Positions 11,979 to 62,127 of a DNA stretch of 64,000 nt are shown here, piece after piece. Source of the stretch: an uncultured virus (IMG/VR IMGVR_UViG_3300025018_002258) (Duplodnaviria; Heunggongvirae; Uroviricota; Caudoviricetes); IMG/VR virus record IMGVR_UViG_3300025018_002258. The stretch is one strand, 5' to 3'. Each line of letters opens with the position of its first letter. Positions within the stretch are counted from its first letter, which is position 1. The notes below the pieces were generated by a model. It did no database searches. It worked only from the letters and a program-made list of their open reading frames with translations, and was not told where the DNA came from. The position numbers and the translations under genes are program-made.

Positions 11979-12328
11979 GGGGATGACAGGTTTCGACGTG
12001 ATCGAAGCAGAATCGTAGGAGCGTGCAGTCGTTGGCAAGGCGACTCAAAAAAGGCCAAAACAATAAGTGCAGACAACGCACTACCACTCGCAGCCTGATA
12101 ATCAGAGCGAGGCGCGACCTGAAGTGTTCCGATTCGGGAAGCGTTCATCTTAGGAACTAGCCAGCCGGGGCTCAAACGACCGACAGCGCGAAAATAATCG
12201 TGAGGTTCTAACGGTCAAGAGATAGTCAAGAAGCTGTAGACCGAGAACTGAAGCCACTGCTCTTGAAAACGCACGTAGGAGCCTTGAGGACGCAGGTTGC
12301 GGACTCGGCTTCGATGCCGACATCTCCA
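11979..12328 (+). ncRNA. ssrA: tmRNA; tag (A)ADNALPLAA
   Basis: Acceptor stem GGGGATG/CATCTCC-A with G3.U70; GGTTTCGAC near the 5' end; tag frame 12069-12101 ends LAA-TGA-TAA; T-arm TCGGC-TTCGAT-GCCGA; CCA not encoded. Confidence 0.95.
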
Positions 12329-12375
12329 TAACAAAATCCACCATCTCCATTATTTGAGATATAATAGGGAGAGAG

Positions 12376-17670: not shown

Positions 17671-17850
17671 ATGGACAGTATGAAGGTTGAGACAAAAATC
17701 GTAGCGTTTAGACTTCCGCAAAATCAACTGGAGACTATTAAGCAATATCTTCGTGAGAAGTCTGTAAAAGAAAATCGTAATATTTCTTTATCAGATTTTA
17801 TCAGAGATGCAATTAGAAAAGAGATGCAATGGGATATAGATGAAAAATAA
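17671..17850 (+). CDS. Ribbon-helix-helix DNA-binding protein (59 aa, not in ORF track)
   Basis: My translation: MDSMKVETKIVAFRLPQNQLETIKQYLREKSVKENRNISLSDFIRDAIRKEMQWDIDEK; beta-strand plus SDFIRDAI helix. Confidence 0.7.
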   Translation: MDSMKVETKIVAFRLPQNQLETIKQYLREKSVKENRNISLSDFIRDAIRKEMQWDIDEK

Positions 17851-18787
17851 AGAACGATGTGTTATATGTAAAAAAGAATTCTTTGTGTGTAAATCGCAAT
17901 GGGGAAACATACATAAAATAACGTGTTCCAGGGGATGTGCCACTATTTATAGGAAGACATTGAAGCCCAACATACTGAAAGACAATACTGATCAAAATGA
18001 AATAATTGTTCCAAATAACATATTGGAGATCATCAACGGAGAATTATTAGGTGATGGTAGTATTGCAAAACAGGCAATAAATGCGAATTTTCTGTATGGT
18101 ACTTCTAATAGAGAGTATGCTATTTATCTCAGGAATATGCTGTCTATATTCGGAGCCGGTGAAATAAAGGAATACTCAGGCAGGGAGATAGAGGGATATG
18201 CTTGTAACACTGCATATTATTTTCAGACTAGAGTTAGCCCATCATTAACAAGCATATATGATAGATGGTACCTAAATAAGGTCAAGATAGTGCCTAAAGA
18301 TTTAAATTTATCTCCGCTAACTTGTCTCCATTGGTATATAGGTGATGGATATGTGAGTAGGGATAGAATAGGATTTTGTACTAATGGATTTCAAAAAGAG
18401 GAGGTAGAGTTTTTATCGAATTCTTTGTATGAATTGGGTTTTAGAAATTCGATGGTTAAAAAGTCTCCTAATAAAGATGGGAATCCAACATTTGAAATAG
18501 GGATGTCAGTATATAACACGAAGGAATTTCTTGATTACATCGGAGAATGTCCTGTAAGTAGTTATCTTTATAAATGGGATATTTCTGAGGAATGCGAATC
18601 ATATTATGAATATCCATATACAACTACTGATATCTCGAATCTACTTTCTATCAGTCAAACAAGCGCTAGAAAAATAACGGAAAGGGAATGGTTTAAGCCG
18701 CTTGGTGTGAAGACAAAAAGGATCTATGGAAATCTTAGATTTCATAGAGACTCTTTGGATATTATTCAAATGGCTTATCCTATCTAA
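17840..18787 (+). CDS. Free-standing LAGLIDADG homing endonuclease
   Basis: GELLGDG and WYIGDG motifs, TCSRGC Zn module; AT-rich. Confidence 0.85.
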   Translation: MKNKERCVICKKEFFVCKSQWGNIHKITCSRGCATIYRKTLKPNILKDNTDQNEIIVPNNILEIINGELLGDGSIAKQAINANFLYGTSNREYAIYLRNMLSIFGAGEIKEYSGREIEGYACNTAYYFQTRVSPSLTSIYDRWYLNKVKIVPKDLNLSPLTCLHWYIGDGYVSRDRIGFCTNGFQKEEVEFLSNSLYELGFRNSMVKKSPNKDGNPTFEIGMSVYNTKEFLDYIGECPVSSYLYKWDISEECESYYEYPYTTTDISNLLSISQTSARKITEREWFKPLGVKTKRIYGNLRFHRDSLDIIQMAYPI

Positions 18788-21614: not shown

Positions 21615-23084
21615 GTGATGAATACGGCATTATTTGAAAACGCTTTCAAAATCCTCAAAGACGTTGCAGACTTAGTTTACCTGAAAGATAATCAGGGAGT
21701 ATATCGGGCCGTGAATCCTAAATTCGTGGAGGTGGTAGGACAATCTCCTGAACAGATTGTGGGAAAGACACCATTCGACCTGTTCGACATCCAATTTGCG
21801 AAAGATCGCTTAGAGGAAGACGAACAGGCATTCTCTGAGGGCGAGAACATTGCCGAAGTTCGGTTTGATGACAGTATTTACTCCATTAGAAAAACTCAAC
21901 TAAAAAATGACAATGGAGAAGTCATCGGAATCATTGCCATAGGTCGAGACATAACCGAACTGAAAAAGATGCAAGAGAAATCTCAGAAGGCTGAAATTAT
22001 CTTTCGTCTTGTTCTTGATACTGTCCCAGAATCAATCTTTTGGAAGGACACCAATTCTGTCTACTTGGGAGGCAACAAGTCTTTTTCGAAGGCTTGCGGT
22101 CTCGGTGTCCAGGATATCCCAGGCAAAACAGATCAAGACATGCCCTGGAAAGAACTCGCAGACATTTATGTAGCAGATGACAGAAAAGTCGTTCAAAATG
22201 GTGAAGCCAAGGTTGAATATGAGGAGCCCTATACTGATATCAAAAGGCAGGCTATCGGTTGGGCCAGGACATCGAAAGTCCCCATTGTTTTGAATGGTCA
22301 TGGGACCATTGTGGGGATATTGGGGACATATCGAGATGTAACAGAGGAAGTTGAAGCTCGAATGGAACTAGAGCAGTATGCAATGGAGCTAGAAATCTCC
22401 AATAAAGAATTAGAGCAGTTTGCTTATGTTGCATCTCATGACTTGAAAGCTCCATTGCGTAATATCCATATCCGACTAGATCTTTTGGGGGAGGCGCTGG
22501 CAGAATGCGATGGAGATAGCGAAAAAGCCCTAGGCTTGATGGATGAGATCCATGTGTTTGCCACTAAAATGACAAAAATGGTTAATGGCCTTCTTGATTT
22601 ATCAAGATTGACAAATAAAACTCTTGATTCCAAAATAATAGATCTGGAAGAAATAATCGATGATGTCATACAAATACTACCAAACAATGGATTAAAGATA
22701 GTGGTGAATGAATTACCAGAGATTTATGGTGATGAAAGCCAGATCTATCGTCTTTTCCAAAATCTGCTTGAGAACTCAAACAAGTTTCGCGATCCTCAGA
22801 AAGAAGACAATATCGTTTGCGCCTACATTTGTTGCGATGGAAAAGACGAAGTGATATTGTGCATTGAGGACAACGGCATAGGAATGCCCAAGGATCCAGA
22901 AAACCGAGCTTTCGACATTTTCAGGTGTTTACACTCTCAAAACGAGGGTGCTGGAGAAGGTTTGGGACTGGCTATCTGTAAGAAGATCGTCGAAAGCCAT
23001 AAAGGACGAATTTGGATCGACTCCGAAGAGGGCGTCGGAACGAAGGTCTTCGTCGCCTTCAGGAAATTGTCAGGAATTGCTTGA
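21615..23084 (+). CDS. PAS-PAS sensor histidine kinase
   Basis: Two PAS domains; H box FAYVASHDLKAPLR; N box NLLENS.KF; DNGIG; G.GLGL. Confidence 0.93.
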   Translation: MMNTALFENAFKILKDVADLVYLKDNQGVYRAVNPKFVEVVGQSPEQIVGKTPFDLFDIQFAKDRLEEDEQAFSEGENIAEVRFDDSIYSIRKTQLKNDNGEVIGIIAIGRDITELKKMQEKSQKAEIIFRLVLDTVPESIFWKDTNSVYLGGNKSFSKACGLGVQDIPGKTDQDMPWKELADIYVADDRKVVQNGEAKVEYEEPYTDIKRQAIGWARTSKVPIVLNGHGTIVGILGTYRDVTEEVEARMELEQYAMELEISNKELEQFAYVASHDLKAPLRNIHIRLDLLGEALAECDGDSEKALGLMDEIHVFATKMTKMVNGLLDLSRLTNKTLDSKIIDLEEIIDDVIQILPNNGLKIVVNELPEIYGDESQIYRLFQNLLENSNKFRDPQKEDNIVCAYICCDGKDEVILCIEDNGIGMPKDPENRAFDIFRCLHSQNEGAGEGLGLAICKKIVESHKGRIWIDSEEGVGTKVFVAFRKLSGIA

Positions 23085-23133: not shown

Positions 23134-25266
23134 ATGAGCGATCTAATCGTCGCACTACAGAGGGTTATCGATGTCAAGCCGCATCCAAACGCTGATCGTT
23201 TGGAGGTAGCTGTGATCCTTGGATGGGAGGTCATTACTCAGAAGGGTAACGTCCAGCCGGGTGACACCGTTCTATACATCCCGCCCGACGCGATGCTCCC
23301 GAGAGAACTTGCTGACAAATGGGGCGTGACTCCATACCTTTCTTGGATGAAAAATGAAGAGAAGGGTCGTGTTCGCGCTGCCAGTATTCGCAGCTACACC
23401 TCCTACGGTTTCTCTGTGCCAGCAAGCAAGTTGGACATCGAGGCAGAAATCGGAGAAGATCTCAAGGCTCATTTTGGCATCGATAAATACGAACCGCCAG
23501 AGCGTTTGGATTCTGGTGACATGGAACAGGAGAACATTTTGTTCCACAAGTTCACCGACATCCAAAGAATCCAAAACTACCCCGAAGCTTTGTTCCCTGG
23601 TGAGGAAGTCGTTGCGACCGAAAAGTTGCACGGGTGTTTGCAGGCCAGAAGTCGTGTGACAATGGCGGATTTTTCTGTCAAGGAAATCAAAGACATTGTA
23701 ATAGGAGACTGGGTATTAGGGTTGGATCCTAACGGAAAAGCGATCCCAACTTTGGTTACTAATGTCTTCAATAATGGCTTGACAGAAGATTGGCTCAGGG
23801 TTAAAGGACCTCGCATTGGTATGGGGCGAGGTAATTCTTTCTTTTCAATAACGTGTACCCCACAACATTTAATCTATACCACATCATTTGGTTATGTACC
23901 AGCAAATAAATTAGATCCAAATTTACATAAGGTCGTCATGCACAGATCAGAAATGGACTTAACCAATATACAGAAACAAGTAATTTTGGGGAAACTCCTT
24001 GGCGACGGTAGTCTTCGACTGATGAATAGTTCGGCTATTATGGAATTTAGCCATATTTTACAAAATGAAGATTACGTAGATTATTGTATGCTTCTTTTGG
24101 GGGGATTATCCAATGGGAATAAAGATCTTTACGAAAGTGGTTATGGGTCTGAGATTTTGAGATCTCAGACTATTTCGTCTTTCTTTATCAAGCATTACTT
24201 CTCGCACATGATAACAGATTGCGGCAAACAAGTATCGGATGATACTCTTGAGTTTTTATCGCCGTTGTCAATAGCTATTTGGTATATGGATGATGGCTGC
24301 CGCTTTACAAGCGGGGAGCAGGAAGATAGGGCTGGGTTCGCAGTATGTGGTTTTTCCGAGGAGAGCGTGGATTGCCTAATATCTGGGTTGAATCGCTTTG
24401 GGATAGAGGCCAAAAAATCAAACAATAGCGATGGATATGCGAGAATATGCCTTAATTCTGACGCTTCTGATAAGCTATGGATGATGATATCCCCTTATAT
24501 CTGTAAGAGTATGCAGTATAAATTGCCAGAAAGATATCAATCCGATTTTCTATGGGAGCCGAATCAATGCGTCTCTGAATATAAAACAGTTATTGTTGAA
24601 CAAGAGATAAATTCTATAGAAAAGTGTGGGGATCCGAAACAAAACAGAAGTAAGTACGATATCGAAACAGAAACCCATAATTTCTTTGCTAATGGAATAG
24701 TTGTTCATAACTCTAGCTCCAGAGTCGGCATCGTTGTCGAGGCAGGCGAAAATGGTGAGCCCGAATGGGTGTTGTGTATCGGAAGTAGCGAAAACCGCCG
24801 CAAACTGAACGAGGGAAGCTTGTACTACGTCCCCGTTGAAGACTATGGCGCTGAAAAGCTGATTGCTGCTTTTGATTCTGTCCGAGAGGAAGGGCTGAGA
24901 GGTTCGGTTATTCTGTTCGGAGAGATTTTCGGAGGCGGCGTCCAAGGCAAGTATGTCTATGGATCCCCAAAGAAGCATCTCTTCCGTGCGTTCGACTTGG
25001 CGATCAATGGCAAGTACGTTGATTATGATGTCTTCTTGCAGTTCTGCGAGGGACATGGTATAATGACTGTACCAGAGCTTTATCGTGGCCCATACGATTT
25101 TGAAGCCATGAAAGCCCTGTGCCAGGGTCAGTCCACGTTGGATACTCATATCAGAGAAGGAATCGTTGTTAAGCCCGTCAAGGGTAGACTGGCCGAGCGT
25201 CGGCCGGTCTACAAATTCCTCAACCCTGATTACGAAACCAAGAAAGACAACCCGGATTCACATTGA
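23134..25266 (+). CDS. RNA ligase (DRB0094/Rnl2-like) containing an intein
   Basis: HPNADRLE N-terminus, EKLHG motif I, GEIFG, FDL, REGIVVK, K..NPDY. Confidence 0.9.
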   Translation: MSDLIVALQRVIDVKPHPNADRLEVAVILGWEVITQKGNVQPGDTVLYIPPDAMLPRELADKWGVTPYLSWMKNEEKGRVRAASIRSYTSYGFSVPASKLDIEAEIGEDLKAHFGIDKYEPPERLDSGDMEQENILFHKFTDIQRIQNYPEALFPGEEVVATEKLHGCLQARSRVTMADFSVKEIKDIVIGDWVLGLDPNGKAIPTLVTNVFNNGLTEDWLRVKGPRIGMGRGNSFFSITCTPQHLIYTTSFGYVPANKLDPNLHKVVMHRSEMDLTNIQKQVILGKLLGDGSLRLMNSSAIMEFSHILQNEDYVDYCMLLLGGLSNGNKDLYESGYGSEILRSQTISSFFIKHYFSHMITDCGKQVSDDTLEFLSPLSIAIWYMDDGCRFTSGEQEDRAGFAVCGFSEESVDCLISGLNRFGIEAKKSNNSDGYARICLNSDASDKLWMMISPYICKSMQYKLPERYQSDFLWEPNQCVSEYKTVIVEQEINSIEKCGDPKQNRSKYDIETETHNFFANGIVVHNSSSRVGIVVEAGENGEPEWVLCIGSSENRRKLNEGSLYYVPVEDYGAEKLIAAFDSVREEGLRGSVILFGEIFGGGVQGKYVYGSPKKHLFRAFDLAINGKYVDYDVFLQFCEGHGIMTVPELYRGPYDFEAMKALCQGQSTLDTHIREGIVVKPVKGRLAERRPVYKFLNPDYETKKDNPDSH
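23635..24711 (+). mobile_element. Intein with LAGLIDADG endonuclease in RNA ligase (359 aa)
   Basis: CLQA...YDIETETHNFFANGIVVHN followed by Ser; LLGDG and WYMDDG blocks. Confidence 0.95.
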
Positions 25267-29432: not shown

Positions 29433-30910
29433 GCAAGGAAGCAAAGGCTATCATACCGGGGATTACTGATCACGAGCAGAAACCCCCGAATTTGATCGAT
29501 TATGTCGATCATCACTACTCCGATTATGCTTATAAGCGGAGTTACTACCTTGACTTGCTTTTTGAAATGGAGGAGAAGTACCCGCAGTTTACATACTTCA
29601 TCTTCAACACCAGTATGCCTATCTTCGTTGATGATCCGAGGTTTGTACAAACGGCGGCGGTTTCTTACAACTTGATCACGAAATGCATGAAGTATTTCTG
29701 GAACGCTTCGTTCTTCGATACTTTGACGCCTGAACAGATCAAGTTTGTGATGATCCATGAGACCCTACATTTGCAGTTGGCGCATCCGATGTGGGCGCGG
29801 CACATGCAGTTCAAGGAGATCTGGAACATTGCTTGCGATGTGGTTATCAACGACCTTATCTCTAGGGATTTCAAAGATGTTGATGTCCCGGATTGGGTTT
29901 GGTCTGGACAAAAGGCTGTGGGCTACGACTGTGCTGATGTTAGCGCAGAAAAGGTCTATGAGGAAATCCTGAAGCAAGCCAAGATCTTCGAAATCGTCTA
30001 CACCGGCCAGGATGGTAAGGGGGAGAAGAAGAAGGGCCAGGGTAAAGGCCAGGGTAAAGGCCAGGGCGATGATGGCGACGGTGAGGGCCAGGGTGTCAAC
30101 CCTGGAGACATCGGCAAAGATGACGTAGAAGGTGAAGGCTTCGAAATCATCGTCGGAGGCGGCTGTCAGTCAATCGACGATCATAGCGGGTGGATTGACA
30201 TCCCCGCTGAGCGTGTCGAGCAAGTTGCCAAGGAAATCAAAGAGATTTTCAGTAGCGACAATCAGGATAAAACAAGAGGGACAGAAAGCAGCGATGCTGG
30301 TCGTTTGGTATACAAGCGAAAAAATGAGTTCTCTCTTCGCCGGTATGTCCAAACGATTGTCACCAAACGATTCGATGAAGAGTTCACTGAAAACTGGAGG
30401 CGCTTCAATCCGAAGCTGGCAACCATCTATCCTGATGTCATTCTGCCGCATTCATTGTTGGCAGAGGCCAGGGCTTCCATCGAATTGCTTTTCATGATCG
30501 ATGTTTCGGGCAGTGTCCCGGACTTCATGGTCAGTGAATTCGTCGCTATCGCAAAGCATCACGCCAAAGACCATGGTGTCAAGACCTGCTCCTTTGACGC
30601 TGATGTTCGGGAGTTCGATCTGAGGACCATGAAAAAGGATGGCAAAGAGGTCATTCCCGGCGGCGGCGGCACCAGCTTTGAGGCCGTTGTCGAATGGGTC
30701 CTTCAGAACAACCCTGGATACGATGTCGTCTTCGTTTTGACGGATGGTTGGGGTGGCGACTTCAATCCCGCTAAAATCGATCCGAAGAAATGGTTCTGGA
30801 TCATCAGCCCGAACGGAGACAAGGTGGACCTCCGTTATGGCAAGTCCATTATGATTCCCGAAGAGTACATCGACAAGTCTGCTAAAAACAAGAAAGAGTG
30901 GTGGGAATGA
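29429..30910 (+). CDS. Metallopeptidase-like (HExxH) plus VWA domain protein (DUF2201-like)
   Basis: HETLH, NIACD..IN, MIDAS DVSGS, GGGGT, LTDG; usual partner of MoxR ATPases. Confidence 0.85.
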   Translation: MSKEAKAIIPGITDHEQKPPNLIDYVDHHYSDYAYKRSYYLDLLFEMEEKYPQFTYFIFNTSMPIFVDDPRFVQTAAVSYNLITKCMKYFWNASFFDTLTPEQIKFVMIHETLHLQLAHPMWARHMQFKEIWNIACDVVINDLISRDFKDVDVPDWVWSGQKAVGYDCADVSAEKVYEEILKQAKIFEIVYTGQDGKGEKKKGQGKGQGKGQGDDGDGEGQGVNPGDIGKDDVEGEGFEIIVGGGCQSIDDHSGWIDIPAERVEQVAKEIKEIFSSDNQDKTRGTESSDAGRLVYKRKNEFSLRRYVQTIVTKRFDEEFTENWRRFNPKLATIYPDVILPHSLLAEARASIELLFMIDVSGSVPDFMVSEFVAIAKHHAKDHGVKTCSFDADVREFDLRTMKKDGKEVIPGGGGTSFEAVVEWVLQNNPGYDVVFVLTDGWGGDFNPAKIDPKKWFWIISPNGDKVDLRYGKSIMIPEEYIDKSAKNKKEWWE

Positions 30911-36459: not shown

Positions 36460-36859
36460 AGACAGCACTGAAGATTATGCTAGAATGGCAGCCGAGAATA
36501 TCAAGTTCATCCTGCAAAAAGACCAAAGAGAGATTCTTGAGGGGGCCACTCACAAGGTCAATAACTATCGGGCTTTGATCGGTTCTCTTGTAACAGAAGA
36601 AATGTCTCTCACCAGCCATCCCTCTCTGTCTACAGGAGAATCCCTCCTGATGCACCTTTGCTACTCCGTTATGAGAGAATTGAAAGATGTCATCGTATGG
36701 GCAGCATTTCACCAGGAAGACAAGGACTTCAGAGATTGGATTTTAAGAGAGGTTTTTGATGTAGACATTAGAGTCCAAGAGGAAGTCTTGGATAACTCTA
36801 TGGAGTTTTCAGAAGATGATGATTCAGAGGAATCAAACAACGACAACGAAGAGCTTTAA
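36383..36859 (+). CDS. Acidic hypothetical protein
   Basis: ORF with GGAGGA RBS near its start. Confidence 0.6.
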   Translation: MEDMNMTPEQMKGLLEQMGIVMGDSEDSTEDYARMAAENIKFILQKDQREILEGATHKVNNYRALIGSLVTEEMSLTSHPSLSTGESLLMHLCYSVMRELKDVIVWAAFHQEDKDFRDWILREVFDVDIRVQEEVLDNSMEFSEDDDSEESNNDNEEL

Positions 36860-37265
36860 TCTGTCGAAAAGCCGTAATGAATGGCTGAAGCATCTTTCAG
36901 GGAAGGACCCAAGCCCTTTTCTGAAAGATGCTTCGCCTTCTTTCAGAGGACCACTTTTAGCTCATCTGGCATCTTTTGAGCCAGACTGGATCGTCTTCAG
37001 CGAACTGAAAAGCGACATGGGGGCTTCTCCTCTGGTTTATATTGCTGGAAATGGGGTTATTGTCCCGCTTGGTTGTAAACATTGTCTCATAGGCTCCAGG
37101 AGCTATGACGGGCAAAGATTAACCATAGCAGCGAAGCAGGCGGTCCCATTCTCCCAGCGATCAACGGCTTTGGACGATTTTTCGTTCCTCTTCGACAGAA
37201 TTCTATTCTTTTGTCCATATTGCAATCGTCTGATTAAAGATTATGCTGGAGATTTCATAGCATGA
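36816..37265 (+). CDS. Hypothetical protein with two CxxC
   Basis: CKHC and CPYC. Confidence 0.55.
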   Translation: MMIQRNQTTTTKSFNLSKSRNEWLKHLSGKDPSPFLKDASPSFRGPLLAHLASFEPDWIVFSELKSDMGASPLVYIAGNGVIVPLGCKHCLIGSRSYDGQRLTIAAKQAVPFSQRSTALDDFSFLFDRILFFCPYCNRLIKDYAGDFIA

Positions 37266-42026: not shown

Positions 42027-42467
42027 TCACTCCTTTGAGGCCATTTCTGCTATATCTATCCAGTAGATCCACATGGTCTTGACGGCACCGATGATATCAG
42101 CCAATCTGTCTGGCTTAACGATGTATGAATTTGCCCCCAGGGCGTAGCACTCATTAATGTCTTCTTGACGGCTAGAGGTTGTCCAGATAACAACAGGGAT
42201 TCTCTTCGTATCATCTTGCTCTTTGATTTCCTTCAAAGCTTGATAGCCATTTTTTCTGGGCATATCCAGATCCAGCAGGATCAGAACTGGCACATTCTTA
42301 AGCTCTTCGCTGGAAAGTTTTGACATTAATTCTGTGCCATTTTCAACAAGAATCAAACGTCCAACATCGAGATTGGCCCTCTCAAAAGCAAGCCTCAGGA
42401 TCTCCCTGTCGCTTTCCTGATCATCAGCCATTATTATGATAACCTTGTCTTTGTTGGACATGTTCAT
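42027..42467 (-). CDS. Single-domain response regulator (Rcp1-like)
   Basis: ADD, LLDLDMPRKNG, IPVVIWTTS, GANSYIVKP. Confidence 0.92.
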   Translation of the reverse strand: MNMSNKDKVIIIMADDQESDREILRLAFERANLDVGRLILVENGTELMSKLSSEELKNVPVLILLDLDMPRKNGYQALKEIKEQDDTKRIPVVIWTTSSRQEDINECYALGANSYIVKPDRLADIIGAVKTMWIYWIDIAEMASKE

Positions 42468-42571: not shown

Positions 42572-43810
42572 ATGCCGCAATATCCTAGAGCAACCACAAC
42601 ATCTGGTATTAGCCCCATATCTCTTGCTAATAATGCTACAATAGATGCTTTCAATAGATTAAGGGTTTCGGATCCTCATACTCTTTTTGATAGCAAGCAG
42701 CTTTATGATAACCAGCCTTTATTCTGGGACGAGGATACTAGCGGGGTAGGAGCAGGGATAGTTTATGATGTTGATAAAAGCGAATCCGTCTTAACCGTCG
42801 GTACGGTCGATGCTGAATATGCTATTAGGCAAAGTAAAAGATACATCAATTATCAGCCTGGGCATTCTCAGTTGGTATTGATAACAGGAAATATTCAAGG
42901 TGGAAAAGAGAATGTCACAAAAAGAATAGGATTTTTTGATGACCAAAATGGAATTTTCTTTGAAACAAATGGTACTGATTTTTATGTAACAAAACGAACC
43001 TATACTACTGGCGCAGCAATTGATACTCAGGTTATTCAAGCAGATTGGAATATAGACTCTTTTAATGGTAGGGGATCTTCTAGAACGGTTTTGGACCTAT
43101 CTAAAACTCAAATTTTTGTTATAGATTATGAATGGTTAGGGGTCGGACGTGTAAGATTAGGGTTTGTTATAAGATGACAGATCTTCTACTGCCATGAATT
43201 TAGGAATGCTAATATTCAAACAGAAGTCTATATGACGACTCCCACTTTGCCAATAAGATATGAAATTCGAAATACAGGAGTCGCAGCTAGTAGTTCTTCT
43301 ATGCAAGCCATCTGTTCTACTGTGATTTCAGAAGGTGGATATAATCCTAGAGGAGTTATACGTTCAGTAGATACAACCATAACGGCTAAGGCTATGAGCA
43401 CAACTTTGATTCCTCTCCTTCAAATCAGATTAAAATCTTCACATATACGTTCAACGGCCGATATCATATCAACCAGCATTTTTTCCGCTGATGTTGCAAG
43501 ATTTAGATGGGCATTGATTTTGAATCCATCTGTAGCTGGAGGGGTGGCGGCAGTCTGGAACTCCGTTACTAATAGTGCCATTGAATATGATTTAACTGCT
43601 ACTGGAACTGTCTCGGGAGGGACGCAAATAGCTTCTGGATATTATTTCTCGTCTAATCAGAGTGCTAATTTTAATCTTCCCGCCCTAGAGAACTCTTTGA
43701 CAATTGCAGCAGATATAGCTGGAACTTCTGATGTCCTAATTTTGGCTTGCCAAACAACAACCGGAGCCGCTAATCTGTTTGGAACTTTATCTTGGAAGGA
43801 ATATAACTAA
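42572..43810 (+). CDS. Putative structural protein interrupted by one in-frame TGA (43175-43177)
   Basis: The two track ORFs share a frame; sequence reads continuously GFVIR*QIFYCHEFRNAN...YMTTPTLPIRYEI. Confidence 0.7.
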
Positions 43811-43812
43811 AA

Positions 43813-44310
43813 TCAGGCAGTTCTAAGATGTTTCAAATAGTCAAAATCAAAGATCTGAGAGACCTTTTCAACATCCTCAGAGGATTGAAGACGGATTCCG
43901 CTTTTGACAGAATTATAAACTCTCTTTCCTTGAAAGGAAGAGTATCGGAGAATCTTATCTAGAATTTTCCAGTCATCTGAGAGACTGTCTTTGTCAACAA
44001 AGAAGCTTGCGCCAGCTTCAAGGGATTCTTTGTCAAGATCTTCAGACCCGTAGGCCGTTAGAATTATGATGGGCTTGTCTACAGCAATTTCACAATTCCG
44101 AATCAAATCTAGGCCATTGACTGATCCCAGGCGATAATCTATGATGAAGGCATCATATGATCCCTCAGTGACCTTTTCACAGAATTCTTCTGGAGTTTTG
44201 GCCCATTCAATATCAAAATCTATACTCTGGGACCTCTTAAGCATCAAGGAAATTGTATTGAAATCCTCTTGGATGTCTTCTACATATAATACTCGCAATG
44301 TCTTACTCAT
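43813..44310 (-). CDS. Response regulator receiver protein
   Basis: VED, IDYRLG..NGLD, IILTA, GA..FVDK. Confidence 0.88.
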   Translation of the reverse strand: MSKTLRVLYVEDIQEDFNTISLMLKRSQSIDFDIEWAKTPEEFCEKVTEGSYDAFIIDYRLGSVNGLDLIRNCEIAVDKPIIILTAYGSEDLDKESLEAGASFFVDKDSLSDDWKILDKILRYSSFQGKRVYNSVKSGIRLQSSEDVEKVSQIFDFDYLKHLRTA

Positions 44311-45481
44311 GATTGCATGTCGCCCTCGGAAGCTTGATCAAAAACCTAGTTCCTACCCTAATTTCACTCTCTACCTCTATCATCCCTCTATGTTTTTCGA
44401 TAATCTTCTTACATATGGCCATTCCCATACCCGTCCCCTCGTATTCTGGGTAGATCTTGTGGAATGGCTTGAAAACCTCATCTTTGTACTTCATGTCGAA
44501 CCCGATTCCATTGTCTTCGTACTTGATAATATGGTAACAAGAGTCGGTCTCATATGACAATTTTACTACGGGATTGGGTTTGTTGTAGAACTTGATAGAG
44601 TTCTCGAACAGATTTTGGAAGACACTACGAATTTGAATCCTGTTGGCAAAAATAAGCGGAAAATCAGTTTCTACTTCTAGCTTGAGAAAGTCATCTTTCT
44701 GAAGGTCCTGCAAGGCTTCCCTGGCCACTTCAACAACGTCAAATTCTTCATGGGGATGATTTTCTTTAGTAACCCTGGAGAAAATGAGCAAACTATCGAT
44801 CATCTCTCTCATCCTCTGAGCGGACGAATGGATGCGATCCAGATGTTCTAAACTTTCTTCTGCCAGGATATCATGAGCGTCTTCCAGGAGGCAATCAGCC
44901 ATGACCCTGATGGTTCTCAATGGACCTTTCAGATCGTGAGAAACGATGTAAGCAAACTCTTCGAGGCTTCGGTTACTTTCTTCTAGTCGTGTTTTCATAA
45001 CAACATCAGGTGTAATGTCTTCCATCATTTCTAAAAAGCTGATTACCTTTCCTTTGCTATTATAGACTGGGGAGATGGATGCTTTATTCCAAAACGGGCG
45101 TCCATCTTTGGTATAATTTAGGATCTCAGTTTCGATTCTGTGTTTTTTGGCAATGGCGGATTTGATCTCGTCCTTAGTTGACTGACTTGTTTTAGGCCCT
45201 TGCAAAAATCTAGGATTCCTTCCGAGGATCTCTTCCTTAGAATAGCCAGTGATTCTTTGATATGCCTTGTTACAATATAGGATTTCATGGTCGCCGTCGC
45301 TTTTTGTTATAATGATGCCTTCCGCCGCAGATTCTATTGCTAGATTTTTGACTGTCAATTCATCATATTGCTCTTCATACCTTTTGTATAGAAATCTTGT
45401 TTTACTTAGCTCTCTCTTTCTACAATAAATCAGGAGGATGGCCAAACAAACGGCACCCCCAGCAAGCAATATCATATCCAT
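44303..45481 (-). CDS. Membrane-anchored LOV-like PAS histidine kinase
   Basis: TM, GRNPRFLQG, NY.KDG.PFWN, SHDLKGPLR, NSIKF, DNGIG, GTGMG. Confidence 0.92.
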   Translation of the reverse strand: MDMILLAGGAVCLAILLIYCRKRELSKTRFLYKRYEEQYDELTVKNLAIESAAEGIIITKSDGDHEILYCNKAYQRITGYSKEEILGRNPRFLQGPKTSQSTKDEIKSAIAKKHRIETEILNYTKDGRPFWNKASISPVYNSKGKVISFLEMMEDITPDVVMKTRLEESNRSLEEFAYIVSHDLKGPLRTIRVMADCLLEDAHDILAEESLEHLDRIHSSAQRMREMIDSLLIFSRVTKENHPHEEFDVVEVAREALQDLQKDDFLKLEVETDFPLIFANRIQIRSVFQNLFENSIKFYNKPNPVVKLSYETDSCYHIIKYEDNGIGFDMKYKDEVFKPFHKIYPEYEGTGMGMAICKKIIEKHRGMIEVESEIRVGTRFLIKLPRATCNHE

Positions 45482-55576: not shown

Positions 55577-56871
55577 TGAACAGTTGCCATAAATTTTATA
55601 GAAATCTCATGATTCTTATGCAAATCAAGATTCTGAAAAATAGATTCCTACAGAATAAAGGAATCTTGGACTAAACCCGAGAACTAACAGCCATGATCAA
55701 GGTCGAAAGACATTTCTGTAAAGGCAATCCCGAAATCATCAGGCTTTGCCATCTCTCTAAAGAACTCTACAATAAATGTAACTTCTTCATGAGAGACAAC
55801 TTTTCCAAAGGAATTAGAACCCCCGATATTTCTACCTTGATCAACCTTGTCAAAGATGAGGATTGTTTCAAGAACCTGCACAATACTAAGACAGCAAAAC
55901 AAACAATCAGACAATGCTTGTCGGACTGGACCAACTTCTTCAGATCTATGACTGCTTACAAAAAGAGTCCAGAAAAATTTATCAGATTCCCCAAACCACC
56001 GAAATACAAGAAAGAAATGGCACAAGTCATTTTTTACAACGAAACAATCAGGAGAAAACCACTCAAGCAAGGAATCATTCAACCAACCAATGACTGTTTC
56101 CAGATCAAATCAGATAAACCGTTTAAACAAGTAATTATAACTCCCAAGTCCTTTGGATTTGTGATAGAAGTAAGATATGAAATCCCAGATGAACCAACCA
56201 AACCAAGAGCTAAAGGCACTTGTTCAATCGATCTTGGTGTAAACAACTTAGCAGCGATAACTTCAGATCAGCATGATCCAATACTGATCAATGGTCGAAT
56301 CGTTAAGAGTTTCAACCAATGGTTTAACAAAAATCCTAATAAGTTCAACTCAATGAAAAGATACTGGAGACTAGAGAACTACTTCCACCATGTTTCCAAG
56401 ATGATTGTTGAAAACTGCAAAGCCAACAATGTTGGTACAATTATAATTGGAAAGAATGATGGTTGGAAGAACGAAATGAACATGGGAAAGAAGAATAATC
56501 AGACATTCCAGTATATACCATTTTGCAGATTGATTCAGAAGATTCAGTATAAGGCAGAGATGGTCGGGATCAAGGTTATTTTCACAGAGGAAAGTTATAC
56601 GAGCAAGGCGTCCTTCATTGATGGAGACCCATTAGATGGGTCAAAGATTAGTGGAAAGAGGATTAATCGAGGTTTGTATAAGAGTAAAGAAGGGAAATTG
56701 ATCAATGCAGATGTCAATGGATCGTTGAATATTTGCAAAAAAGTAATCCCAAAGATTGAAGAAGATCGATGGGGCAGGAGCGTTGCCGCAACGCCCGTGG
56801 CAGTGAACCCGCTAAGCTGGTTCACTGCCCAAACATAAGGAATCTTCAGATTTATGTAGATTTTTATGAAC
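55577..56871 (+). mobile_element. Non-autonomous TnpB-only element (no transposase)
   Basis: TGAAC at both ends; imperfect ~33-bp inverted repeats at 55588-55620 and 56834-56868; interrupts a gene. Confidence 0.7.
55693..56838 (+). CDS. tnpB: RNA-guided endonuclease TnpB
   Basis: SK.LYN, IDLGVNNL, YKA...GI.V...EESYTSK, NADVNGS.NI. Confidence 0.92.
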   Translation: MIKVERHFCKGNPEIIRLCHLSKELYNKCNFFMRDNFSKGIRTPDISTLINLVKDEDCFKNLHNTKTAKQTIRQCLSDWTNFFRSMTAYKKSPEKFIRFPKPPKYKKEMAQVIFYNETIRRKPLKQGIIQPTNDCFQIKSDKPFKQVIITPKSFGFVIEVRYEIPDEPTKPRAKGTCSIDLGVNNLAAITSDQHDPILINGRIVKSFNQWFNKNPNKFNSMKRYWRLENYFHHVSKMIVENCKANNVGTIIIGKNDGWKNEMNMGKKNNQTFQYIPFCRLIQKIQYKAEMVGIKVIFTEESYTSKASFIDGDPLDGSKISGKRINRGLYKSKEGKLINADVNGSLNICKKVIPKIEEDRWGRSVAATPVAVNPLSWFTAQT

Positions 56872-57048
56872 GGTATGATGTCCTATTGGCTTTGGAGCAG
56901 GCTGTTGTTGAAAACAAACTGACAAAGATCCCAGAAGTAAGGATCCACACAACAAATGGTGCAGCCAGAAAAAGAATGGAACAAGCTCTCGAAAGTATAC
57001 AATTAAAAGTCGAAGAATATAGAATAGAAGAGGAAAATCAAGAGAATA

Positions 57049-59372: not shown

Positions 59373-59486
59373 GTCGGATAAGGGATTGAGATCCACGTTG
59401 TCACAATCAAACTTAACTGAAATCGGTAGACTATATGATGTCAGTGCAAATACCATAAAAAATGGGCAAAATATTACGGACGATAA

Positions 59487-60488
59487 ATGGATTACATAGG
59501 CTCGAAAATCAAGCTGAATGAATGGATTTTTGGAACCATCGAAAGCATCGTTGATGAAAATGATGATCCGTTTCTGGATGCCTGTTGTGGCTCTGGCGCG
59601 GTAAGTCGCTATGCAGCAAATGAATGTTATGAGGTCATCGCCAATGACATCATGAAGTTTGCCAGCGTCATTGCCAATGGAAGCATCGGAGTTTCAGACC
59701 CGATGCTTGTTGAAGCACGAGACCATATTCGGGCCATCGACGCCCTTGACCCCATTGAAGGGTTCTTTTTTCACAACTTCTGCGACGAATCAGACTCTCC
59801 CAGGCTCTATTTCACAGCAGCAAATGCTGGAAAGATAGACGCAGCCAGAGCTTATCTCGAATATATCCCTCCAGGAAAGCTGAAAGACTATTTGCTTTAC
59901 TGCGGGATAGAAGCCCTGAGCCGCGTTTCCAACACGACAGGTGTACAATCTGCTTTCCTGAAGAAGTTTAAAACCCGCGCTCTAAATGACTTCAGATTTA
60001 GGCTTGAAGATGTGATTCGGGGACATATATCAGGGGCTTTCAATGAAGATGTCTTGACACTTCTCACGGACCACGATCTCAAATATGACATTCTCTATCT
60101 AGATCCCCCATACAATCATCGTCAATATGGACCAAACTATCATCTTTATGAGACTTTTGTCAGGAATGACGATCCGGCAGTGAACGGATCAACAGGGCTA
60201 AGAAGTTGGCAGGAAGAATCAAAAAGTGATTTCTGTTCCAAGAAGGCTTGTTTGGAGTTTCTGAAGCAAGTGATTGGGGCCTCGACCGCCAAATGGAACT
60301 TTATTTCTTACAACTCAGACGGCATTATGACGAAAGAAGACGTGATGGGAACCTTTGAGGGTTGTCAATGTTTCGAACAGCTCTATCGGCGCTATCGATC
60401 TGATGTTAGTGAGACAAGACAGTATAACGAAAGCGACTTGGTTGAATACCTCTTCGCGATTCCAGGAAAAATTCCTGGAATCGCTTGA
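59487..60488 (+). CDS. DNA adenine methyltransferase (D12/FokI-like), second copy
   Basis: YIGSK, DACCGSG, YLDPPYN.RQY..NYH. Confidence 0.9.
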   Translation: MDYIGSKIKLNEWIFGTIESIVDENDDPFLDACCGSGAVSRYAANECYEVIANDIMKFASVIANGSIGVSDPMLVEARDHIRAIDALDPIEGFFFHNFCDESDSPRLYFTAANAGKIDAARAYLEYIPPGKLKDYLLYCGIEALSRVSNTTGVQSAFLKKFKTRALNDFRFRLEDVIRGHISGAFNEDVLTLLTDHDLKYDILYLDPPYNHRQYGPNYHLYETFVRNDDPAVNGSTGLRSWQEESKSDFCSKKACLEFLKQVIGASTAKWNFISYNSDGIMTKEDVMGTFEGCQCFEQLYRRYRSDVSETRQYNESDLVEYLFAIPGKIPGIA

Positions 60489-60513
60489 CAGTTGGGGCGA
60501 TTCGCGATATAAT
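60485..60513 (+). promoter_or_regulatory. sigma70 promoter of the Pth2-like operon
   Basis: TTGACA-N17-TATAAT. Confidence 0.88.
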
Positions 60514-60536
60514 TGGGGCTATAACGGAGGAAGAAC

Positions 60537-60887
60537 ATGTTGGACAGATTGTAGGACTCGAAACACTTCTTTGTTGTTGTTCGCACAGACATTCCCATAG
60601 AACAGCAACTCGTTCAAGCCATTCATGCCGCCCATGAATCCGGCATTCACCTCTCCCCGTCGAGCGACAAGACGAATTCCGTCGTTGTCTGCGCCGTCAA
60701 ATCGGAACAACAGCTTCTCAACGCTCAGGACAGAGTGGAAGCGAATGGTATCCGAACCATTTTGTTCCGAGAACCAGATATCGGCAACGAGGCAACCGCC
60801 TTTGCAACCGAACCTATTCCAAGCGATCAACGGCACATGTTAAAAAATCTCCAGCTTTGGAAGATGAAGGAGTTGTTGCCATGTTGA
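60537..60887 (+). CDS. Pth2-like peptidyl-tRNA hydrolase with an in-frame TAG at codon 6 (not in ORF track)
   Basis: GGAGG RBS; my translation MLDRL*DSKHFFVVVRTDIPIEQQLVQAIHAAHE...VVVCAVKSEQQL...LFREPDIGNEATAFATEP...NLQLW; VR.D, Q..HA and EPD....TA match Pth2-fold proteins. Confidence 0.75.
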
Positions 60888-61362: not shown

Positions 61363-62127
61363 ATGGAGATCACAATGGAATACCAAGAAATGAAGGAAAG
61401 ATTGACAAAAGCCCTAGAGGGTATGGATGTAACTGATCTGGAGAAATTCAAAAGAGAAATATGTATAGAGCTTACAAATAGAAGAAGAATCTGGACTGAT
61501 ATTTTGAAAGAAAAATATGAAACTGAGGGATACTACGATTTTCGTAGTTCGATAGATTGGAAAGACGCAGATCAGAGAAACAAACTCTATGAAAAAGAGA
61601 AGGCAGCCAAGAAAGCAGCAGAAACAGCAGTAAGAGAAATCATTAGAGATTTCACCGATGTGGCATGTCAGGGAGTTTTAACGGGTGGTTCTGCTCGTTG
61701 GTGGTGGAGCAAACTGGACGATCCTGAACGACAAAATAAACCAACAGAGATCAGCGATGAAGCTAAATCGCTTTCTGGTATAATGCTAAATCATTCTTTC
61801 TGGTGGCCAAACAAAGGAAGATATTTGGATTATATCGACGTAAGAGAACATGTTGCCGCTGTCCTCCATGCAGTTAGCAATGCTGAGGATATTGTCTTAA
61901 GGGATGACAGAACGATTGAAGAAGAAATATCAATGGGTGTTTCGTCCGCTGCTGTTTATGATGGTTTCAGACGTTTCTATATGTATCGTGAGAACTTAGA
62001 GAAGGAACTATTGGACGATCATCACTGTGGTGATTGTATCAAAGTGGCTTGTAGTTGTTCTCGTTGCATTATCGACGATGCTCGGGGTTCCGCCGAGGAA
62101 TTCATGAGAGAGGCAGGCTGGCTCTGA
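61363..62127 (+). CDS. Hypothetical protein with C-terminal Cys/His cluster
   Basis: HCGDC...CSC.RC. Confidence 0.65.
   Translation: MEITMEYQEMKERLTKALEGMDVTDLEKFKREICIELTNRRRIWTDILKEKYETEGYYDFRSSIDWKDADQRNKLYEKEKAAKKAAETAVREIIRDFTDVACQGVLTGGSARWWWSKLDDPERQNKPTEISDEAKSLSGIMLNHSFWWPNKGRYLDYIDVREHVAAVLHAVSNAEDIVLRDDRTIEEEISMGVSSAAVYDGFRRFYMYRENLEKELLDDHHCGDCIKVACSCSRCIIDDARGSAEEFMREAGWL

What the first reader, a model, noticed from the sequence alone, without database searches (positions are those of the whole stretch)
60485..60887. Pth2-like gene that can only be translated by reading through an amber codon at position 6
Seen: a perfect TTGACA-N17-TATAAT promoter, GGAGG RBS and ATG at 60537, then five codons (MLDRL) and TAG at 60552-60554. 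An uninterrupted 110-codon Pth2-like domain follows in the same frame. No in-frame ATG/GTG/TTG lies between the TAG and the first conserved strand (FVVVRTD), so the ORF caller missed it. TAG ends other genes here (2163, 21608, 36050, 40565, 46557), so this is not genome-wide recoding. Established: very short minigenes (lambda bar type) shed peptidyl-tRNA, which is Pth's substrate, and prfB is autoregulated by termination efficiency at an early stop. Inference: the amber acts as a sensor, so Pth2 is made only when termination is weak or a suppressor tRNA is present, for example under anti-phage translation attack.
Basis: partly seen in the sequence, partly recalled or inferred. Interest (0 to 1): 0.92.

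Follow-up and report, generated by a model that had tools for sequence, protein, structure and literature searches.

The report
Amber-gated phage Pth2-like gene
A large phage keeps a UAG stop as the sixth codon of a small tRNA-hydrolase-like gene, a design shared by dozens of phage lineages that carry their own UAG-reading tRNA next to the gene, so the enzyme is probably made only when that tRNA overrides the stop; in this particular phage the tRNA gene has been deleted.

Summary
A 12/12 sigma-70 promoter, GGAGG and ATG 60537 are followed by MLDRL, TAG at 60552-54 and 110 open codons. The product has the Pth2 fold.

The stop is not an error. It stands in two assemblies and in contigs of four runs.

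It is also conserved. 52 of 73 dereplicated homologous phage loci have ATG plus 1-7 codons plus an in-frame TAG just before the first strand. Three lineages carry a TAG inside the domain.

A tRNA(CUA) gene lies within the fetched flank in 54 of 73 clusters. It is the nearest tRNA in 47 of the 59 representatives that have any tRNA within 3 kb. One lineage has a TGA gate with a tRNA(UCA) nearby.

The best reading is that translation is gated by a phage-encoded amber suppressor.

In this window the tRNA is absent from 64 kb plus 6.9 kb. A 96%-identical sibling carries one 1.07 kb upstream. The window has a 2.8-kb deletion there.

The minigene and anti-phage-attack ideas are untested.

The scan noted the same design earlier on other DNA. 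I found no paper describing it.

The parts
60485..60513 (+). sigma-70-type promoter: TTGACA (60485-60490), 17-nt spacer, TATAAT (60508-60513)
   Evidence: 12 of 12 matches. Both hexamers are identical in the 96% sibling L123.
60526..60530 (+). Shine-Dalgarno GGAGG, 6 nt before the ATG
   Evidence: A strict SD core precedes the leader ATG in 20 of 52 amber clusters; the rest are A-rich, AT-rich lineages.
60537..60551 (+). five-codon leader ATG TTG GAC AGA TTG (MLDRL), in frame with the domain
   Evidence: Both differences from L123 in the leader are synonymous. Homologues have leaders of 2 to 8 codons.
60552..60554 (+). in-frame amber codon TAG (the gate), followed by G
   Evidence: An early TAG is conserved in 52 of 73 clusters. 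The base after the TAG is A in 36, G in 13, C in 3 and T in 0 of 52.
60555..60887 (+). Pth2-like domain, 110 codons plus TGA stop
   Evidence: Pfam PTH2 23.4 bits. Family profile against PDB Pth2 entry 2zv3, E 3.7e-8. AlphaFold2 mean pLDDT 89.3. The top 13 Foldseek hits are Pth2-fold structures, 10 deposited as Pth2 or Bit1, with TM 0.71-0.79.
59387..59477 (.). 91-bp filler at a deletion junction. The sibling L123 and the 80% relative L124 carry about 2.8 kb here: a 412-aa ORF, a 548-aa GHKL ATPase and a tRNA(CUA).
   Evidence: In L123 the tRNA ends 5 nt into the restored homology at window 59478. A contig in run X3 joins 59383 to 59478 differently from the window.
59487..60488 (+). D12-class N6-adenine DNA methyltransferase directly upstream. 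In L123 it lies between the tRNA(CUA) and the Pth2-like gene.
   Evidence: Pfam PF02086, E 9.7e-32.
11979..12331 (+). phage-encoded tmRNA (context: second translation-rescue element of the same genome)
   Evidence: ARAGORN. Rfam RF00023, 89.3 bits. In L011 and L135 a tmRNA lies near the tRNA(CUA): 54 nt after it in L011 and about 1.1 kb after it in L135.

Best explanation
This is a real gene of a large (jumbo-type) phage that uses the standard code.

Shown by comparison, not by experiment: the reading frame starts at ATG 60537 and runs through a UAG at codon 6 into a Pth2-fold domain. The full 116-residue protein can be made only if the UAG is decoded. In the family, a phage-encoded amber-suppressor tRNA(CUA), usually the nearest tRNA gene, supplies that decoding. 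Without it RF1 releases the pentapeptide MLDRL and no enzyme is made. The output of the gene is therefore set by the competition between the suppressor and RF1.

Inferred: the design ties the amount of the Pth2-like enzyme to the level of amber suppression in the infected cell. This could work as a feed-forward timer or as demand matching. The enzyme's job is linked to the suppressor tRNA, because ungated family members sit next to a tRNA(CUA) as well.

Specific to this genome: a 2.8-kb deletion has removed the neighbouring tRNA(CUA). Here the gate is orphaned. The gene is probably silent unless a suppressor is encoded in the unsampled part of the genome or is supplied by the co-occurring sibling phage.
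For: 1. Anatomy. Promoter, SD, ATG, five codons, TAG and 110 open codons are all present, with no alternative start for 60 codons.

2. Conservation of the gate. 98 loci fall into 73 clusters at 90% identity.
- 45 clusters have ATG plus 1-7 codons plus TAG and no canonical start before the first strand.
- 7 more have the same gate plus a possible GTG, TTG or ATG within the last codons.
- In these 52 gated clusters the stop is always TAG.
- The background for the same pattern is 33 of 885 other frames, split evenly among the three stops.

3. True decoding. In-frame TAGs lie inside the domain in L037, L049 and L054/L061, and the conserved FREPD half continues in frame.

4. Linkage to the suppressor.
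- A tRNA(CUA) lies in the fetched flank in 54 of 73 clusters: 39 of 52 gated and 14 of 18 ungated. The window's own cluster counts only through L123.
- It is the nearest tRNA in 47 of the 59 representatives that have any tRNA within 3 kb. It makes up 55 of 183 tRNAs there, and in 14 loci it is the only one.
- Wider searches found it 3.3 kb away in Serratia phage BF, 2.8 kb away in GAP32 and 6.9 kb away in the contig of L001.

5. Matching switch. L060 and L063 have a TGA gate and a tRNA(UCA) within about 3.2 kb.

6. Selection. The window differs from L123 at 12 synonymous and 4 non-synonymous sites. Both leader changes are synonymous.

7. Standard code. 12 of 80 ORFs in the window end in TAG. 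Reading TAG as sense gives no TAG-specific gain in open frames.

8. Fold.

9. Deletion of the tRNA here.
Against: - No cognate tRNA exists in the 64-kb window or in the 6.9 kb beyond it. Relaxed ARAGORN settings gave up to 260 noise calls, none with a CUA anticodon. The mechanism therefore cannot be shown for this genome.
- 13 of 52 gated clusters had no tRNA(CUA) in the fetched flank. After wider searches two still had none: L009 on a 149-kb contig and L005 on a 46-kb contig.
- Ralstonia phage RsoM2USA has none within 10 kb on either side.
- The tRNA also sits next to ungated family members. The linkage may therefore reflect a shared function rather than the gate.
- In 28 of 52 gated clusters the codon after the TAG is Ile (ATT, ATA or ATC), a near-cognate start.
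- The amino acid inserted at the TAG is unknown.
- No protein, ribosome-profiling or reporter data exist. No RNA run was listed.
Confidence: 0.72

Rival explanations
1. The UAG senses termination strength without a dedicated tRNA. Host near-cognate tRNAs read through when RF1 is limiting or translation is under attack, as prfB senses RF2.
For: The gate sits very early in the frame (codon 3 to 9), as in autoregulatory recoding sites. This genome has no suppressor within 71 kb. Some gated lineages show no tRNA(CUA) in the DNA at hand. The base after the TAG is never T in 52 clusters. From memory, not from a call, that would fit selection on termination context.
Against: The specific and repeated linkage to a tRNA(CUA) is unexplained by this reading. 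So is the TGA gate that goes with a tRNA(UCA). Second TAGs inside the domain would make basal read-through vanishingly rare. The product is not a release factor, so there is no prfB-like loop.
Confidence: 0.12
2. The leader is a coupling mini-ORF. Ribosomes terminate at UAG and re-initiate at or just after it on a non-canonical start, so the UAG is never decoded.
For: In 28 of 52 gated clusters the next codon is ATT, ATA or ATC. In mycobacteriophage IkeLoa the arrangement is ATG-TAG-GTG, and annotators start the gene at that GTG.
Against: In the window the next codons are GAC TCG AAA CAC, none of them start-like. 24 of 52 clusters have no near-cognate start after the TAG. Internal TAGs in L037, L049 and L054 cannot be bypassed this way. 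The reading gives no reason for TAG only, or for the neighbouring tRNA(CUA).
Confidence: 0.06
3. In this particular genome the gene is a recent relic. After the tRNA was deleted it is no longer expressed and is drifting, even though the family design is functional.
For: The 2.8-kb deletion removed the tRNA that both the 96% sibling and the 80% relative keep. No replacement lies within 71 kb.
Against: The frame, promoter and SD are intact. Differences from the sibling are 12 synonymous against 4 non-synonymous. tRNA genes (Glu, Met) begin 5.9 kb past the window's end, so a suppressor may lie further on. Both variants seem to co-occur in run X3, so a suppressor could be supplied in trans.
Confidence: 0.3
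4. The TAG is a sequencing or assembly error, or a private nonsense mutation.
For: None beyond the bare fact of an in-frame stop.
Against: Two assemblies, a variant strain and contigs of four runs all keep it. It is conserved across the family.
Confidence: 0.01

Closest known systems
Stop-codon-recoded phages with their own suppressor tRNA (TAG read as Gln, 'code 15': crAss-like, Lak and others; preprint 10.1101/2021.08.26.457843, passages read)
   Same: A phage-encoded tRNA(CUA) overrides UAG in a host that uses the standard code. In-frame stops are proposed to delay expression until the tRNA is made.
   Different: In those phages 26-71% of genes carry in-frame stops. Here TAG still ends 12 of 80 ORFs, and I found one convincing gated gene in 64 kb. 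The gate sits at the extreme 5' end of one small gene family. The word 'hydrolase' does not occur in that preprint.
bldA tRNA-Leu(UAA) and TTA-codon gating of developmental genes in Streptomyces (recalled, not from a call)
   Same: A single dedicated tRNA decides whether a few target genes can be translated.
   Different: bldA reads a rare sense codon. Here the codon is a stop, so RF1 competes and failure yields a 2- to 8-residue peptide. The tRNA and its target are also adjacent.
prfB (RF2) autoregulation through an early in-frame UGA (recalled)
   Same: An early in-frame stop turns termination efficiency into a level of gene expression.
   Different: prfB needs a +1 frameshift, and its product is the factor that reads the stop. 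Here the frame does not shift and the product is a Pth2-like hydrolase, not a release factor.
Canonical Pth2 (PF01981; archaeal and eukaryotic peptidyl-tRNA hydrolase; PDB 2zv3, 3erj, 1xty, 1q7s)
   Same: The fold matches (TM 0.71-0.79). The shared motifs are R-x-D after strand 1, Q..HA in helix 1, an acidic residue and a Thr in the C-terminal loop.
   Different: Sequence identity is only 15-28%. The G-K-G-K loop is two residues shorter and its Lys is not conserved. The NCBIfam Pth2 equivalog scores 16.6 bits against a cut-off of 126. Phages CBB and L009 carry an ordinary canonical Pth2 as well as this gated paralogue.
Lambda bar-type minigenes
   Same: SD, ATG, a few codons and a stop. The most common leader in the family is ATG plus one codon (29 of 52 clusters).
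   Different: bar minigenes are free-standing and toxic through peptidyl-tRNA drop-off. Here the mini-frame continues in frame into a conserved domain and goes with a suppressor tRNA. Any drop-off role is untested.

Membership tests
Pth2 (PF01981) peptidyl-tRNA hydrolase | Match to the family profile above the curated threshold | tested here: met
   The Pfam match is marginal: 23.4 bits against a cut-off of 23, E 7.4e-5. The profile of 67 family members hits 7 solved Pth2-family chains at E below 0.01, best 2zv3 at 3.7e-8. The NCBIfam Pth2 equivalog is not met: 16.6 bits against 126.
Pth2 (PF01981) peptidyl-tRNA hydrolase | Pth2 alpha/beta fold | tested here: met
   AlphaFold2 gives mean pLDDT 89.3 and pTM 0.82. 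Foldseek ranks 1-13 are all Pth2-fold structures, 10 deposited as Pth2 or Bit1 and 3 as proteins of unknown function, with E from 1e-6 to 2e-4 and TM 0.71-0.79.
Pth2 (PF01981) peptidyl-tRNA hydrolase | Conserved active-site residues of canonical Pth2 | tested here: inconclusive
   R10, Q21, H24, E73, D75 and T81 are invariant in 67 sequences and align with canonical motifs. The Lys of the canonical GKGK loop has no conserved counterpart. Which residues are catalytic is recalled, not tested.
Pth2 (PF01981) peptidyl-tRNA hydrolase | Hydrolysis of peptidyl-tRNA | not testable with these tools
   This needs an enzyme assay.
Suppressor-tRNA-dependent (programmed) stop-codon read-through gene | In-frame stop conserved among homologues, with coding sequence continuing in frame | tested here: met
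   52 of 73 clusters have the early TAG. Three lineages have internal TAGs. The window differs from its sibling at 12 synonymous and 4 non-synonymous sites.
Suppressor-tRNA-dependent (programmed) stop-codon read-through gene | Cognate suppressor tRNA encoded in the same genome | tested here: not met
   None was found in the window (64 kb) or in the next 6.9 kb. The rest of the genome is not held. The feature is met in the 96% sibling L123, 1.07 kb upstream, and in 39 of 52 gated clusters.
Suppressor-tRNA-dependent (programmed) stop-codon read-through gene | Read-through protein observed | not testable with these tools
   No RNA holder was listed, and no proteomics is at hand.
Genome-wide TAG reassignment (code 15) | Many genes with in-frame TAG, and TAG not used as a terminator | tested here: not met
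   12 of 80 ORFs end in TAG. They include topoisomerase II, which ends at profile position 698 of 701. Reading TAG as sense adds 2% open-frame cover, against 4% for TGA and 3% for TAA.
prfB-type autoregulatory recoding | A +1 frameshift at the early stop, with a product that recognises that stop | tested here: not met
   The domain is in the same frame as the ATG. The product is Pth2-like, not a release factor. No release-factor domain was found in the window's ORFs.

The most novel reading that the evidence does not exclude
The tRNA(CUA) and the Pth2-like enzyme form a closed control loop. The enzyme, a Pth2 fold with a rebuilt substrate loop, removes the acyl or peptidyl group from the phage's own suppressor tRNA, or clears the products of suppression. 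The amber codon at the head of its gene is the sensor. More active suppressor then makes more enzyme, which lowers suppressor activity.

This would be a self-limiting 'governor' that lets a standard-code phage run a stop-codon suppressor safely. It would also be a plausible stepping stone to full TAG recoding.

The deletion variant in this window would be a natural knockout of one half of the loop.
Probability: 0.15. Interest if true: 0.92.

Novelty: new variant of a known kind. Interest (0 to 1): 0.82.

Why it matters
- **A target for orphan suppressor tRNAs.** Suppressor tRNAs in standard-code jumbo phages have had no known target. [quoted passage not shown] This family supplies a natural, conserved target.
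- **A mis-annotated gene.** The gene is systematically missed or truncated by annotation. 14 of the 40 listed phage records have no feature under the match. GAP32 and CBB annotate only the 3' 77 codons. Salmonella phage Arash labels a 50-codon stub and calls its CUA tRNA 'tRNA-Phe'.
- **A possible new switch.** If confirmed, this is a natural one-tRNA, one-gene translational switch in phages. It would be a possible intermediate on the road to stop-codon reassignment and a source of natural amber-suppression parts.
- **A testable system.** Cultured phages with the gate make it directly testable.

Tried and rejected
- **Whole genome.** None is held for this window, so I could not look for a suppressor tRNA or release factor genome-wide.
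- **Finding the same phage elsewhere.** An exact 54-base pattern gave 0 hits in viral contigs. Megablast of 8 kb gave no match in cultured phages.
- **Single-sequence search against PDB.** 0 hits. The family profile was needed.
- **Hidden tRNA.** Rfam at E up to 1 gave only the tmRNA plus three sub-threshold sRNA matches. ARAGORN with introns allowed and with thresholds down to 70% gave up to 260 noise calls, none with a CUA anticodon.
- **Which amino acid the suppressors insert.** Nearest-neighbour comparison of 63 unique tRNA(CUA) with 332 other phage tRNAs gave low, scattered matches: Arg 11, Met 7, Asn 6 and so on. It was not informative. In L054 the internal TAG lines up with Glu of close relatives. 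That is one case, judged by eye.
- **Expression.** No RNA holder was listed for the stretch.
- **Raw reads.** All runs are kept as contigs, so depth and rare variants could not be judged. 7 difference rows were not shown.
- **Local code test.** It is crude and uses only 1 to 20 kb per locus.
- **Second gated gene in the window.** Of 11 TAG candidates, 3 have an SD-like motif: 30126, 36762 and 60552. The one at 30126 has a start one codon later. The one at 36762 was not followed up.
- **Bar-minigene idea.** I considered peptidyl-tRNA drop-off feeding Pth. No computation bears on it.
- **Literature.** Five searches and passages of seven papers gave no description of an amber-gated Pth2-like gene. 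Subscription journals and supplements were not searched.
Full report
**What is in the window**

The window is 45.3% G+C and densely coded under the standard code. In a greedy set of 80 ORFs, 42 end in TGA, 26 in TAA and 12 in TAG.

Its genes are those of a large phage:
- topoisomerase II;
- an ExoV-like helicase-nuclease;
- an RNA ligase with a LAGLIDADG insert;
- an NAD-dependent DNA ligase;
- an amidase endolysin;
- a virion protein;
- two D12 methyltransferases;
- a TnpB element;
- a tmRNA at 11979-12331.

No whole genome is held for it.

**The observation**

- TTGACA lies at 60485-90, then 17 nt, then TATAAT at 60508-13, a 12/12 match.
- GGAGG lies at 60526-30 and ATG at 60537.
- MLDRL follows, then TAG at 60552-54, then 110 open codons to TGA at 60885-87.
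- The next canonical in-frame start is 60 codons downstream.
One is topoisomerase II, which ends at position 698 of a 701-position profile.

**The product has the Pth2 fold**

- The 110-residue product scores 23.4 bits on Pfam PTH2, against a cut-off of 23.
- A profile of 67 family members reaches solved Pth2 structures, with 2zv3 at E 3.7e-8.
- The AlphaFold2 model has mean pLDDT 89.3.
- Its 13 best Foldseek matches are all Pth2-fold structures, with TM 0.71-0.79. Ten are deposited as Pth2 or Bit1 and three as proteins of unknown function.

**The stop is real**

- An independent metagenome contig (L122) is 99.98% identical over 10,896 bases and has the same TAG.
- A 96% variant (L123) keeps MLDRL-TAG with two synonymous changes in the leader.
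- In each of four public runs a contig spans 60552-54 without a difference. These runs are stored as contigs, and 7 difference rows were not shown.

**The stop is conserved**

I gathered 98 homologous loci:
- the best 80 of 160 relatives in viral contigs;
- 14 of the 16 metagenome loci, because L136 and L137 start inside the domain;
- three cultured phages;
- the window itself.

They fall into 73 clusters at 90% identity.

| Class | Clusters |
|---|---|
| ATG plus 1-7 codons plus in-frame TAG, no canonical start before the first strand | 45 |
| Same gate plus a possible GTG, TTG or ATG in the last codons | 7 |
| Ordinary start | 10 |
| N-terminal fusion | 8 |
| GTG-led leader with TAG (L132) | 1 |
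| TAA gate (L014) | 1 |
| TGA gate (L060/L063) | 1 |

Further details of the gate:
- The leader is most often ATG plus one codon, in 29 of 52 clusters.
- The residue before the TAG is Thr in 22 of 52.
- The base after the TAG is A in 36, G in 13, C in 3 and T in 0.
- Among 885 other open frames of 90 or more codons in the same loci, the gate-like pattern appears 33 times, 11 for each stop codon.
- In genome contigs only 7 loci matched, all on MAG contigs. Four are gated.

**The UAG is decoded, not bypassed**

- L037 and L054/L061 carry a second TAG inside the domain. L049 has an ordinary start and an internal TAG.
- In each case the conserved C-terminal half continues in frame.
- Re-initiation after a leader cannot explain these cases.
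- In the window the codons after the TAG are GAC TCG AAA CAC, none of them start-like.

**The partner is a tRNA(CUA)**

- ARAGORN finds a tRNA with anticodon CUA in the fetched flank in 54 of 73 clusters: 39 of 52 gated and 14 of 18 with ordinary starts or fusions. The window's own cluster counts only through L123.
- Flanks were 3 kb for viral loci, 10 kb for metagenome loci and 1.5 kb for the three cultured phages.
- This is not merely a tRNA-array neighbourhood. Of 72 representatives, 59 have a tRNA within 3 kb. In 47 of those the nearest one is CUA. CUA makes up 55 of 183 tRNAs there, against 17 for the next most common, CAU. In 14 loci it is the only tRNA.
- Wider searches found it 3.3 kb downstream in Serratia phage BF, 2.8 kb downstream in GAP32 and 6.9 kb upstream in the contig of L001. 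They did not find it in the contigs of L009 and L005.
- The one TGA-gated lineage has a tRNA(UCA) within about 3.2 kb.

Cultured phages with the gate that I read myself:

| Phage | Leader | tRNA(CUA) |
|---|---|---|
| Serratia BF | MTH-TAG | 3.3 kb downstream |
| Yersinia fHe-Yen9-04 | MSH-TAG | annotated tRNA-Sup-CTA, 3.1 kb downstream |
| GAP32 | MAQ-TAG | 2.8 kb downstream |
| CBB | MAQ-TAG | 3.7 kb downstream |
| Acinetobacter ME3 | MT-TAG | 430 bp upstream |
| Salmonella Arash | ML-TAG | 1 kb downstream, annotated as tRNA-Phe |
| Ralstonia RsoM2USA | ML-TAG | none within 10 kb |
| Mycobacteriophage IkeLoa | ATG-TAG-GTG | 250 bp downstream |

**This genome has lost the tRNA**

- No tRNA lies in the 64 kb.
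- L122 extends 6.9 kb past the window's end and holds only tRNA-Glu and tRNA-Met.
- Relaxed searches give no CUA candidate.
- The sibling L123 has about 2.8 kb between window positions 59386 and 59478 that the window lacks. This stretch holds a 412-aa ORF, a 548-aa GHKL ATPase and a tRNA(CUA) ending 5 nt into the restored homology. The window has a 91-bp filler instead.
- The 80% relative L124 shares those two proteins and also has a tRNA(CUA) there, though of unrelated sequence. The window's state is therefore a deletion.
- In run X3 one contig bridges the window's junction, and another joins 59383 to 59478 differently. This fits both forms living together.
- The gene itself looks healthy. 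The promoter hexamers and SD are unchanged, and differences from L123 are 12 synonymous against 4 non-synonymous.

**How it most likely works**

Shown by comparison:
- The frame needs UAG decoding.
- The family travels with an amber-suppressor tRNA.

Inferred:
- The suppressor competes with RF1 at codon 6. The enzyme level therefore follows suppressor activity.
- Because ungated members are also linked to the tRNA, the enzyme's function probably concerns the suppressor or its consequences.
- That function could be clearing products of read-through, alongside the phage tmRNA. More boldly, it could be acting on the suppressor tRNA itself.

Phages CBB and L009 also carry an ordinary canonical Pth2, so this paralogue likely does something distinct.

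The context effects of neighbouring bases on suppression and termination are recalled knowledge, not tested here.

**Literature**

- The XacN1 paper reports two tRNA(CUA) genes and states that no target gene could be found (PMC5852040, passages). In XacN1 the family member is an ungated fusion.
- A jumbo-phage survey notes PTH2 in these phages (PMC7824862, passages).
- A paper on tRNA arrays notes a PTH2-like gene inside arrays of cluster C mycobacteriophages (PMC5966550, passages).
- The recoding preprint (10.1101/2021.08.26.457843, passages) treats genome-wide recoding only.
- None of these mentions an amber codon in this gene.
- Five searches found nothing closer.

Earlier notes of this scan describe the same design on other DNA (e1-5680253, e1-4040081, e1-5749954). 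I treated them as leads and tested the claim here independently.

**Verdict**

- This is a new variant of known kinds, namely suppressor-dependent read-through and tRNA-gated translation.
- In this genome it is caught as an orphan after loss of its tRNA.

Noticed in passing
L123:4055-7025 (absent from the window between 59386 and 59478): The deleted segment holds a 548-aa GHKL ATPase. It matches Pfam HATPase_c_3 and, weakly, NCBIfam MzaB and BbrUII/HgiDII restriction-enzyme models. It lies next to the D12 methyltransferase that the window keeps. This may be a restriction-modification-like pair of which the window retains only the methylase.
   Followed up: partly
window 55577-56873: A TnpB / IS605-family element (ORF 55693-56838, OrfB_IS605 plus Cas12f1-like TNB domains) is present in the window but absent from the 96% sibling L123. 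This is a recent insertion or loss.
   Followed up: partly
window 61375-62076: About 700 bp inside ORF 61363-62127 has no counterpart in L123, where positions 8918 and 8919 join window 61374 to 62077. This is another indel between the two strains.
   Followed up: no
window 21615-23084 (+), 44303-45481 (-), 42027-42467 (-), 43813-44310 (-): The phage encodes two PAS-HisKA-HATPase histidine kinases and two stand-alone response-regulator receiver proteins. That is a two-component signalling set in a phage genome.
   Followed up: no
window 23134-25266 and 17840-18787: The RNA ligase ORF is interrupted by a LAGLIDADG homing-endonuclease domain (residues 274-466) flanked by ligase halves, which looks like an intein. 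A second, free-standing LAGLIDADG ORF lies at 17840-18787.
   Followed up: no
window 42572-43177 and 43232-43810: One PHROG family (phrog_1645, virion structural protein) is split over two adjacent same-strand ORFs, covering profile positions 44-227 and 249-438.
   Followed up: no
window 36759-36764: An ATG-TAG 'start-stop' with an SD-like GAGAGG upstream lies in frame, 17 codons before the ATG of ORF 36816-37265. It may be chance.
   Followed up: no
L025:1939-2688, L028:1718-2449, L053:2221-2985: In three phage lineages an HNH/NUMOD3 homing endonuclease is fused behind a duplicated copy of the leader, the TAG and the first 20 or so codons of the Pth2-like gene. It lies directly upstream of an intact gated copy. 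The endonuclease appears to have invaded the gene and inherited its amber gate.
   Followed up: partly
L060:2989-3915, L012:2461-3309, L138 (XacN1 ORF364): Some family members are fused to a domain of about 180 aa with H-D-like motifs (WHDxGKP ... DMDxH). It is C-terminal in L060 and N-terminal in L012 and XacN1. Pfam gave no hit for that part.
   Followed up: partly
L140 (Salmonella phage Arash) 3310-3384: The tRNA annotated as tRNA-Phe in the record is read by ARAGORN as anticodon CUA. The annotated 'peptidyl-tRNA hydrolase' there covers only the last 50 codons of the gated gene.
   Followed up: partly
L124:9812-9883 versus L123:6951-7025: The two closest relatives keep a tRNA(CUA) at the same place, but the two tRNAs are unrelated in sequence. 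L124's resembles that of L002. The suppressor gene appears to have been replaced while its position was kept.
   Followed up: no
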